DNA from: Octopus vulgaris
Lineage: Eukaryota
Assembly: GCA_951406725.2 (NCBI GenBank)
Contig: OX597831.1
Coordinates: 76,136,001-76,200,000 of the forward strand
Length of the DNA: 64,000 nucleotides
Reading direction: 5' to 3'
The notes beneath the pieces are model-generated. The model did no database searches. It had not been told where the DNA came from and was given only the letters and a program-made list of their open reading frames with translations. How positions within the stretch are numbered: the first letter of the stretch is position 1; every line of letters starts with the position of its first letter. Position numbers and translations under genes: made by a program. Below, piece after piece: positions 11,198 to 12,391 of this stretch.

Positions 11198-11327
11198 AGA
11201 ATGTGTGCGTGTGTATTTGTATGTATGCATAATATGCATGTGTTTATATATATATATATATATATAAACATATATATTACATATATATAAATATTTGTCA
11301 CATATATATACACACACATATATGGCC

Positions 11328-11390
11328 AGATAACCGAAGAGATGGTGTTGTGGATTTCCACTTCGGCATCTGAAACTTAGAGTTCTATCT
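11328..11390 (+). ncRNA. Type I hammerhead-like motif, copy 1 (CCGAAGA core variant)
   Basis: AGATAA-CCGAAGA-GATG[..GTGG ATTT CCAC..]CATC-T-GAAACT TAG AGTT-CTATCT; stems I, II and III pair by eye. Confidence 0.55.
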
Positions 11391-12228
11391 TGACTATTGA
11401 GTAATTGTAACATATTATTTGTTACGTTTTTGGCCCCCTAAAGAAAACAGATAGAACTTGTTTTCTATATTATGTCCCAAAAAGTTTTTTTATCTCATTA
11501 TACATTTTATTTTTTCATATATTTTTATATTTTCACACTTAATAATTTTTTCTGTACTCTTCCATCCTGCATTTTTTCCTGTGTCTATATAGACGTGTAT
11601 ATAGATTCATTTTGTACACGTGTGTGAATATGTATGAGTGGGCGGGTTTAGATGTGTGTGTGCGTGTGTGCGGGCATAAGAATACATATATATATATATA
11701 TAGACGTTTTTACTTAGTATTTTTCCATTTTTTAGGTTTTTATTTTGGTGGGGGGCATATGTATATTCATTTTTTGTATATGCGTGTGTGTGTATGCGTA
11801 TATAAACATGTGCGGGTATGCACATATATGGGCGTGCATGTATGAGTGCATAAGGGCATGTCCGTATATGAACGTGGTTTTTATGCTTTGTATACTTCCT
11901 TATGTTTTTTCTGTTACCTTTAACTATGGTTTTTCTTGTGCTTGTGCGTATATAGACGTATGTATGAACTTTTACGGTACGCGTGTGTGTATGAGTTTGT
12001 ATATATATGCGTATATATTTGGCGAAAAATGCGAGTGAAGATGTGTACGTTTTCATAGTGACGTATAAGTACGCACGTGGGTCCGCGAGCGCACATGTGA
12101 GCGTATGAGTAGCCATGTTTACGTGTTTACTATGAACTTTTAATCTTATTTTATATAAGTAGCAGAATTATAACACAGTAATTTCCCTTTATATAACGGT
12201 ATTTTTTCATACCGTTTTTCAGATGGCC

Positions 12229-12291
12229 AGATAACCGAAGAGATGGTGTTGTGGATTTCCACTTCGGCATCTGAAACTCAGAGTTTTATCT
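12229..12291 (+). ncRNA. Type I hammerhead-like motif, copy 2 (CCGAAGA core variant)
   Basis: Stem I AGATAA/TTATCT is a perfect 6 bp; stem II GATG/CATC; GAAACT CAG AGTT with a GUU cleavage triplet at 12283-12285. Confidence 0.6.
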
Positions 12292-12391
12292 TGACTATTG
12301 AGTAATTGTAACATATTATTTTATAGATAAATTTCCTCTATTTACATAATATTGAGGTCTCTTTCTTTCTTTTGTTATCTTACCGTTTTTA

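What the first reader, a model, noticed from the sequence alone, without database searches (positions are those of the whole stretch)
11322..12320. Direct pair of type I hammerhead-like motifs 901 nt apart: candidate retrozyme-like unit
Seen: a repeat of about 100 bp (11322-11420 and 12223-12321) is occupied largely by a hammerhead fold: stem I AGATAA/TTATCT, core CCGAAGA (U4C variant), stem II GATG/CATC with inner GTGG/CCAC, an extra T, GAAAC, a 3-bp stem III and a GUU triplet. Of the two differences between copies, one lies in loop III and one in stem I. Cleavage after 11384 and 12285 would release a 901-nt non-coding RNA. Established: retrozymes and PLE pseudo-LTRs use tandem hammerheads to process monomers that can circularise. 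Inference: a non-autonomous ribozyme-bounded retroelement, possibly undescribed.
Basis: partly seen in the sequence, partly recalled or inferred. Interest (0 to 1): 0.75.

Follow-up and report, generated by a model that had tools for sequence, protein, structure and literature searches.

The report
Truncated Penelope transposon, not a retrozyme
The two ribozyme-like repeats are real, but they are end pieces of a very common protein-coding jumping gene of a known kind, and their 901-base pairing occurs once in the genome, likely as a copying accident, so this is largely ordinary.

Summary
The 99-nt repeat and its hammerhead motif are there as described. The retrozyme reading is not supported. 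The repeat is the terminal pseudo-LTR of an autonomous Hydra-type Penelope-like element: 4,032 exact copies of the core motif, 708-aa RT + GIY-YIG ORFs, native hammerhead period 2.58 kb, insertions in (TA)n. The 'spacer' is the last ten codons of that ORF plus its 3' UTR. The junction that creates the 901-nt pair occurs once in 2.8 Gb, at an 11/16 microhomology: a 5'-truncated copy with a second end piece joined on, likely by RT re-priming. The upstream hammerhead carries two private weakening changes, and a released monomer would lack both inferred RT start sites. Side results: older subfamilies have the canonical CUGA core, while U4C marks the young, abundant ones; copies show no pile-up of 5' ends at the predicted cut; 53 of 53 inverted pairs combine one long and one short 3' end. 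The scan noted such unequal two-armed insertions before on other DNA. Cleavage and expression are untested.

The parts
11322..11420 (+). Second, direct pLTR fragment holding hammerhead copy 1 (core 11334-11340, predicted cut after 11384); ends 36 nt after the cut, 5-11 nt short of the family's proximal 3' end; two private changes (11378T, 11385C)
   Evidence: (0 of 64 other copies carry either change)
11405..11420 (+). Junction microhomology: 11 of 16 bases match the native ORF end that normally precedes 11421; junction unique in the genome
11421..11454 (+). Last ten codons and stop of the RT + GIY-YIG ORF (LRFWPPKENR*; other copies read ...KFLLRFWSPKENR)
11455..12160 (+). 3' UTR of the long-UTR subfamily; the window body is 87-94% identical to 27 of 28 long matches in fetched loci (68% to one older copy)
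12161..12321 (+). Terminal segment shared by long- and short-UTR subfamilies (pLTR), with hammerhead copy 2 at 12229-12291 (stem I 12229-34/12286-91, core 12235-41, stem II 12242-45/12268-71, palindromic stem III 12276-84, predicted cut after 12285)
12322..12394 (+). Tail: start of the native 5' UTR; proximal family end near 12326-12332, distal end at about 12394 where this copy meets (TA)n
11194..11240 (+). 47-bp flank duplicated at 12587-12633; only these two copies in the genome; possible target-site rearrangement
12587..12633 (+). Downstream copy of the 47-bp flank duplication, preceded by an inverted 24-nt copy of 11126-11149 at 12538-12561

Best explanation
This is a 5'-truncated copy of a high-copy, protein-coding Hydra-type Penelope-like retrotransposon, to whose broken 5' end a second piece of the element's own hammerhead-bearing terminal repeat is joined at a single genomic site, likely by re-priming of reverse transcription during insertion. 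Shown: the native element is pLTR/hammerhead - 213-215 nt leader - 708-aa RT + GIY-YIG ORF - 3' UTR - pLTR/hammerhead - tail, repeated every 2.58 kb in tandem arrays; copies end at two fixed points 41-47 and about 109 nt past the predicted cut, in (TA)n; inverted pairs use one end of each kind. Inferred: the endonuclease nicks both strands of a TA tract and RT starts once at each site on RNA that is intact across the hammerhead. Here the first cDNA started at the distal site (12394) and stopped at the ORF end (11421); its own 3' end, not the second genomic nick, would have primed the second round near the proximal site through the microhomology, giving a direct instead of an inverted second arm (11420 back to 11322). 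The hammerhead is likely a weak, dimer- or protein-dependent ribozyme that is not needed for insertion. The 901-nt unit is a dead end.
For: Upstream of 11421 other copies encode RT (YKDD) and GIY-YIG. Hydra motifs RWK, DKT, CxCx5C, CxxC, CxH are present in a 708-aa ORF (definitions in PMC8557442 section 11). Four hammerheads at 2579-2585 nt spacing in L133; cut-to-ATG 213-215 nt in 5 of 5 loci where both were seen. Junction unique, 11/16 microhomology. 135 of 156 hammerhead copies end at one of two sites (69 distal, 66 proximal); 53 of 53 classified inverted pairs are distal + proximal. Of 12 other same-strand hammerhead pairs in fetched loci, 9 continue into the native 5' UTR and 3 are separated by microsatellite; none has the window's junction. 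Published Hydra hammerheads share T before GAAA and an ACTC-N-GAGT-T stem III (PMC8557442 File S2). In the one PLE tested in vitro RT starts at two internal sites and hammerhead mutants insert normally (PMC11167929).
Against: No phylogeny was run; Hydra membership rests on motifs and a by-eye likeness to Hydra-1_Obim. Pfam GIY-YIG scores only E 0.013, below the cut-off, and no RT family is hit. The re-priming step is inferred from one locus; the second arm stops 5-11 nt short of the usual proximal end. The 47-bp flank duplication and 24-nt inversion show that DNA repair or local rearrangement also acted here. Covariation gives no support beyond conservation (135 of 500 shuffles reach the observed pairing).
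Confidence: 0.88

Rival explanations
1. Same element, but the direct pair arose after insertion at the DNA level: microhomology-mediated deletion between two neighbouring or tandem copies, or a local duplication, fused the upstream pLTR to the ORF end.
For: Native tandems exist; deleting from +36 of the upstream unit to the ORF end at the 11/16 microhomology would give exactly this structure. A 934-nt hammerhead pair made by an internal deletion exists at L065 and is also single-copy. Microhomology-mediated deletions are reported for PLEs (PMC3846280, passages). Flank duplication shows local rearrangement.
Against: The breakpoint lies within a few bases of the proximal RT end, which a random deletion need not hit. 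This rival changes only the last step, not the identity of the element.
Confidence: 0.35
2. A non-autonomous retrozyme: the two hammerheads cut out a 901-nt RNA that circularises and is copied by a PLE enzyme.
For: Two same-strand hammerheads, palindromic stem III able to form a dimer (hetero-duplex -5.0 kcal/mol), no intact ORF between them, 34% GC. A preprint argues that animal retrozymes derive from PLE pLTRs (10.64898/2026.07.22.740005, part 1 of 5 read).
Against: One copy in 2.8 Gb; no array. 901 nt is outside the ~170-400 nt given for metazoan retrozymes (PMC7229834, passages). Folding z of -3.7 to -4.7 is matched by the antisense strand (-3.9) and by 4 of 9 control windows (z <= -3.2). 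Copy 1 has an A-C mismatch next to the cut and a weaker stem III. The monomer would stop at +36 and lack both inferred RT start sites.
Confidence: 0.05
3. The young family's hammerhead is a decayed relic: U4C, the extra base before GAAA, GUU and a competing hairpin have switched it off, and the element spreads without it.
For: Older copies (81-88% identical) have CUGAAGA and one at about 75% has a GUC triplet. A competing CAGAUG/CAUCUG helix has pair probability 0.5-0.99 in copy 2 and the hammerhead fold is 7.6 kcal/mol above the MFE. No pile-up of 5' ends at the cut: at most 88 of 4,398 copies (2.0%) against 193 of roughly 4,200 at a control offset.
Against: Five base pairs of stem I, stem II and stem III stay nearly invariant across subfamilies while loops change; a 3-nt deletion in 12 of 64 copies (a 13th gap there is a different deletion) leaves GATG/CATC intact. 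U4C is reported to lower activity but still allow viroid infectivity (PMC3088659, passage). Lack of a pile-up is also expected if RT needs uncut or re-ligated RNA.
Confidence: 0.35

Closest known systems
Hydra clade of EN+ Penelope-like elements, e.g. Hydra-1_Obim (PMC8557442; section 11, passages and supplement part 2 read)
   Same: Single ORF with RT then GIY-YIG; RWK, DKT, CxCx5C linker, CxxC and CxH; (TA)n targets; type I hammerhead near the 3' end with palindromic stem III; partial tandems and inverted 5'-truncated arms.
   Different: A sister family, not Hydra-1_Obim itself: proteins look colinear but only about half identical by eye (not computed), and the hammerhead sequence differs. 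Core is CCGAAGA in the young subfamilies; all 28 Hydra rows of File S2 have CTGA. Tail is about 65 nt, against the 30-40 bp given for PLEs. One subfamily has a ~0.84-kb 3' UTR (unit about 3.2 kb, inferred).
Poseidon PLE PAc of Anolis (PMC11167929; passages and section 3 part 2 read)
   Same: Tandem units, AT-rich targets, two RT start sites that define the tail, hammerhead upstream of them, uncut RNA as template.
   Different: Different clade; PAc's hammerhead overlaps the ORF start, here the cut lies 213-215 nt before the ATG. The paper saw no difference in start site between strands; here every classified inverted pair has one end of each kind.
Metazoan non-LTR retrozymes (PMC7229834, passages; bioRxiv 10.64898/2026.07.22.740005, first fifth)
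   Same: Two same-strand type I hammerheads around sequence with no intact ORF; low GC.
   Different: Single locus, no array, 901 nt, spacer is PLE ORF end + 3' UTR, minimal dimer-type hammerhead, no evidence of a circle.

Membership tests
EN+ Penelope-like elements | Single ORF with RT and C-terminal GIY-YIG endonuclease | tested here: met
   708-aa ORFs in L133 with YKDD at 346 and YVG at 596; Pfam GIY-YIG E 0.013, under the cut-off, no Pfam RT hit; RT likeness to Hydra rows by eye. The window holds only the last ten codons.
EN+ Penelope-like elements | Partial tandems (pLTRs), 5' truncation, inverted 5' arms, tail at one end | tested here: met
EN+ Penelope-like elements | Type I hammerhead in the pLTR | tested here: met
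   Motif present in 64 copies from 48 of 59 loci chosen without the hammerhead as main query; canonical core in older copies. Activity untested.
Hydra clade | RWK motif and DKT in place of DKG | tested here: met
   RWK at 37, DKT at 114
Hydra clade | CxCX5C linker; CxxC and CxH around the conserved E and N | tested here: met
   CSCRNKELC 557, CGLC 660, CPH 691; no CX2-5CxxC
Hydra clade | Insertion into (TA)n; length under 3 kb | tested here: met
   TA runs follow most 3' ends; unit 2.57-2.59 kb for the short-UTR subfamily; the window's long-UTR subfamily is about 3.2 kb (inferred), slightly over.
Hydra clade | Absence of CCHH and GxKF/Y; phylogenetic placement | not tested
   No reference alignment or tree was built; reference proteins were seen only in a supplement.
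Non-LTR retrozyme | Multi-copy unit in tandem arrays or at many loci | tested here: not met
   Junction 1 match genome-wide; 0 of 29 other loci
Non-LTR retrozyme | Small (~170-400 nt), highly self-paired non-coding monomer | tested here: not met
   901 nt; contains ORF end; folding z within the range of control windows
Non-LTR retrozyme | Self-cleavage and abundant circular RNA | not testable with these tools
   Only assembled contigs of runs not on record as RNA were offered

The most novel reading that the evidence does not exclude
The locus is a caught-in-the-act birth of a retrozyme: one RT template jump turned a Hydra-type PLE end into an ORF-free unit bounded by two hammerheads that cut as a dimer and release a 901-nt circle. 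More broadly, the strict one-long, one-short rule of the family's two-armed insertions shows that each PLE insertion fires both RT start sites once, and the sweep of a U4C core shows selection for a slower ribozyme.
Probability: 0.08. Interest if true: 0.6.

Novelty: new member of a known kind. Interest (0 to 1): 0.25.

Why it matters
As a locus it matters little: one rearranged copy among thousands. It is a caution that a direct hammerhead pair is not enough to call a retrozyme in genomes full of PLE ends. The family is a useful test bed for two open points on PLEs: very young copies (median 5 differences in 1,450 nt) with a variant U4C core allow the role of the hammerhead to be tested against older CUGA copies, and the 53-of-53 long/short end rule gives a sharp prediction for an in vitro insertion assay.

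Tried and rejected
Rfam scan: no hammerhead family listed. The repeat finder on the whole window was swamped by microsatellites. Pfam gave only a sub-threshold GIY-YIG hit. Cleavage footprint: three inverted pieces starting at 12286 (L048 and L054 share one flank) and 3 of 30 tail-selected copies with 5' ends within 1 nt of the cut suggested a pile-up; the genome-wide count rejected it (the 88 include poly-T slippage variants, the 193 include probable small deletions, and the control's denominator comes from a pattern two bases longer). CpG decay alone as the source of CTGA copies: rejected, 635 CTGA against 120 CCAA, and 11 of the 12 CTGA loci fetched belong to older subfamilies by linked changes. 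Covariation: none above shuffles on 17 distinct copies. Rolling-circle copying of tandem arrays: inconclusive; four units on C3 are identical over 1,450 nt and share one rare variant, the C1 and C2 arrays share none. Special structure of the 901-nt unit: not distinct from controls. A spreading deletion derivative: the 934-nt pair at L065 is single-copy. Expression: no RNA holder listed on record; contigs of guessed-RNA runs cover the family but show no start, end, strand or level, and no listed piece bridges the window's junction, which proves nothing. No look-alike by sequence in the scan's earlier notes.

Full report
Observation. The window has a 99-nt direct repeat at 11322-11420 and 12223-12321, 901 nt apart, differing at 11378T/12279C and 11385C/12286T. 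Stem III is the odd palindrome ACTC-A-GAGT, the form that PLE hammerheads use to pair as dimers (PMC4209133, first quarter read); duplex energies are -7.4 (copy 2), -4.2 (copy 1) and -5.0 kcal/mol (mixed). Rfam lists no hammerhead among 121 weak matches, and in a 136-nt context the hammerhead fold lies 7.4-7.6 kcal/mol above the MFE. The extra T before GAAA can also be read as a G-U closing pair with a bulged C (inference); it is C in older copies, and T before GAAA is common in published Hydra hammerheads.

The repeat is a high-copy transposon end. The genome is 2.8 Gb in 227 contigs; an octopus-like host is inferred from size and from the protein's closest likeness, not from a record. An 18-nt core pattern has 4,032 exact matches. 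In 30 loci chosen by the repeat (one is the window itself, some overlap), copies match the window's spacer for variable lengths, are cut at the 5' side, often have an inverted partner and end in TA runs.

The spacer is an ORF end plus 3' UTR. Of 29 other loci chosen by the spacer's 5' part, none carries a hammerhead in front of it; the match begins at or near 11406, and most continue upstream in coding sequence. Translations give RT and GIY-YIG ending in KFLLRFWSPKENR, whose last ten codons are window 11421-11454. Full units read hammerhead - 213-215 nt - ATG in 5 of 5 loci where both were found among 30. L133 has four hammerheads at 2579-2585 nt spacing with two uninterrupted 708-aa ORFs. The protein has RWK, DKT, YKDD, CSCRNKELC, CGLC and CPH, the features given for the Hydra clade with its (TA)n targeting (PMC8557442 section 11). 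Pfam support is weak (GIY-YIG E 0.013). Hydra-1_Obim in that paper's supplement is colinear and about half identical by eye, with a different hammerhead, so this is a sister family. There are short-UTR and long-UTR subfamilies; the window belongs to the long one.

The 901-nt pair is a one-off. A 26-nt junction pattern with one mismatch allowed has 1 match in the genome, the window itself. The 16 bases before the junction match the native ORF end at 11 places. Of 12 other same-strand hammerhead pairs in fetched loci, 9 continue into the native 5' UTR (8 at 2567-2589 nt, one at 934 nt through an internal deletion that is also single-copy) and 3 are separated by microsatellite. Both changes in copy 1 are private (0 of 64 other copies) and weaken it. 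A 47-bp flank is duplicated on both sides of the element and nowhere else, with a 24-nt inverted piece beside it.

Mechanism. Among 156 hammerhead copies with enough downstream sequence, 69 end near +109 from the cut, 66 near +41 to +47, 10 run on into the 5' UTR, 7 are intermediate and 4 unclassified (duplicate and self loci were left out first). All 53 head-to-head pairs in which both ends could be classified have one long and one short end (unclassified ends were dropped before pairing, and a few loci are duplicates such as L048/L054 and L111/L112). The tail at only one end is known for PLEs (PMC8557442 Fig. 2 legend; PMC3846280 passages), and two RT start sites flanking the tail were shown in vitro for an Anolis PLE (PMC11167929). 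I infer two priming events per insertion, one from each start site. The window has a long-ended main arm and a second arm ending 5-11 nt short of the proximal site, but in direct orientation, which fits priming of the second round by the first cDNA. A later microhomology deletion between tandem units gives the same sequence and is the main rival for this step.

The ribozyme. CTGANGA copies number 635 against 120 for the opposite-strand CpG control, and the fetched CTGA loci are mostly older subfamilies, one with a GUC triplet. U4C therefore likely arose in the lineage that later expanded most. Stems stay nearly invariant while loops vary, but covariation does not exceed shuffles. 5' ends do not pile up at the cut: at most 88 of 4,398 against about 193 of 4,200 at a control offset. 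Since RT starts downstream of the hammerhead, templates must be uncut or re-ligated there, in line with the Anolis result that hammerhead mutants insert normally. U4C is reported to lower but not abolish function in a viroid (PMC3088659 passage). Cleavage here is untested.

Against a retrozyme. Single copy; 901 nt against ~170-400 nt (PMC7229834 passages); folding no better than the antisense strand or 4 of 9 control windows; and a monomer cut at both sites would end its leader at +36, before either inferred start site.

Novelty. A new family of a known clade, and a private rearranged copy. Five paper searches and a motif search of one supplement (wrapped sequence lines could hide a match) did not show this family or its U4C core; Repbase and Dfam were not available, the repeat library behind PMC13282606 (passages only; its table lists 31 Penelope-like families) was not read, and the bioRxiv supplements were not seen, so it may already be catalogued. 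The scan's own notes report Hydra ends, true retrozymes and unequal two-armed insertions in this and related genomes; I reached the end rule before that look-up, and it is a repeat within the scan. Interest 0.25.

Noticed in passing
window 13235-13437: A ~200-nt piece between TA runs with another hammerhead-like motif (CCGACGA...GAGC/GCTC...GAAACGTT at 13308-13334, palindromic AACGTT, also C at position 4); likely the end of an unrelated PLE family.
   Followed up: no
window 3192-3222 and 3934-3960: Two more minimal hammerhead-like cores (CTGATGAG...GCTCCGAAA; CTGAAGAG...CTGAAAC), probably ends of other PLE families.
   Followed up: no
window 14637-15137, 14062-14327, 33861-34147, 50515-50896: Long fold-back (inverted) repeats next to TA runs; 14637-15137 has relatives at about 33626-33867 and 3700-3870.
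   Followed up: no
G000:C3:37226816-37237752 (L158-L161) and G000:C1:57207500-57225500 (L133, L134): Tandem arrays of four or more 2.58-kb units; the four C3 units are identical over 1,450 nt and share one rare variant, compatible with copying from one template or with local duplication.
   Followed up: partly
L065:2242-3345: Internally deleted copy with hammerheads 934 nt apart that keeps the 5' UTR and tail; single-copy.
   Followed up: yes
window 11293-11305: 12 bases just upstream of the element read as the reverse complement of the native ORF end that precedes 11421; may be a tiny inverted arm or chance.
   Followed up: no
window 12217-12276: In the long-UTR subfamily TTTCAGATG pairs with CATCTGAAA and would block the hammerhead; the short-UTR subfamily has two changes that weaken this helix.
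   Followed up: partly
L046, L048, L054, L058, L033, L091: A few copies carry G8A in the core (4 of 64), and some inverted arms begin exactly at the predicted cut; the genome-wide count showed no excess of the latter.
   Followed up: partly
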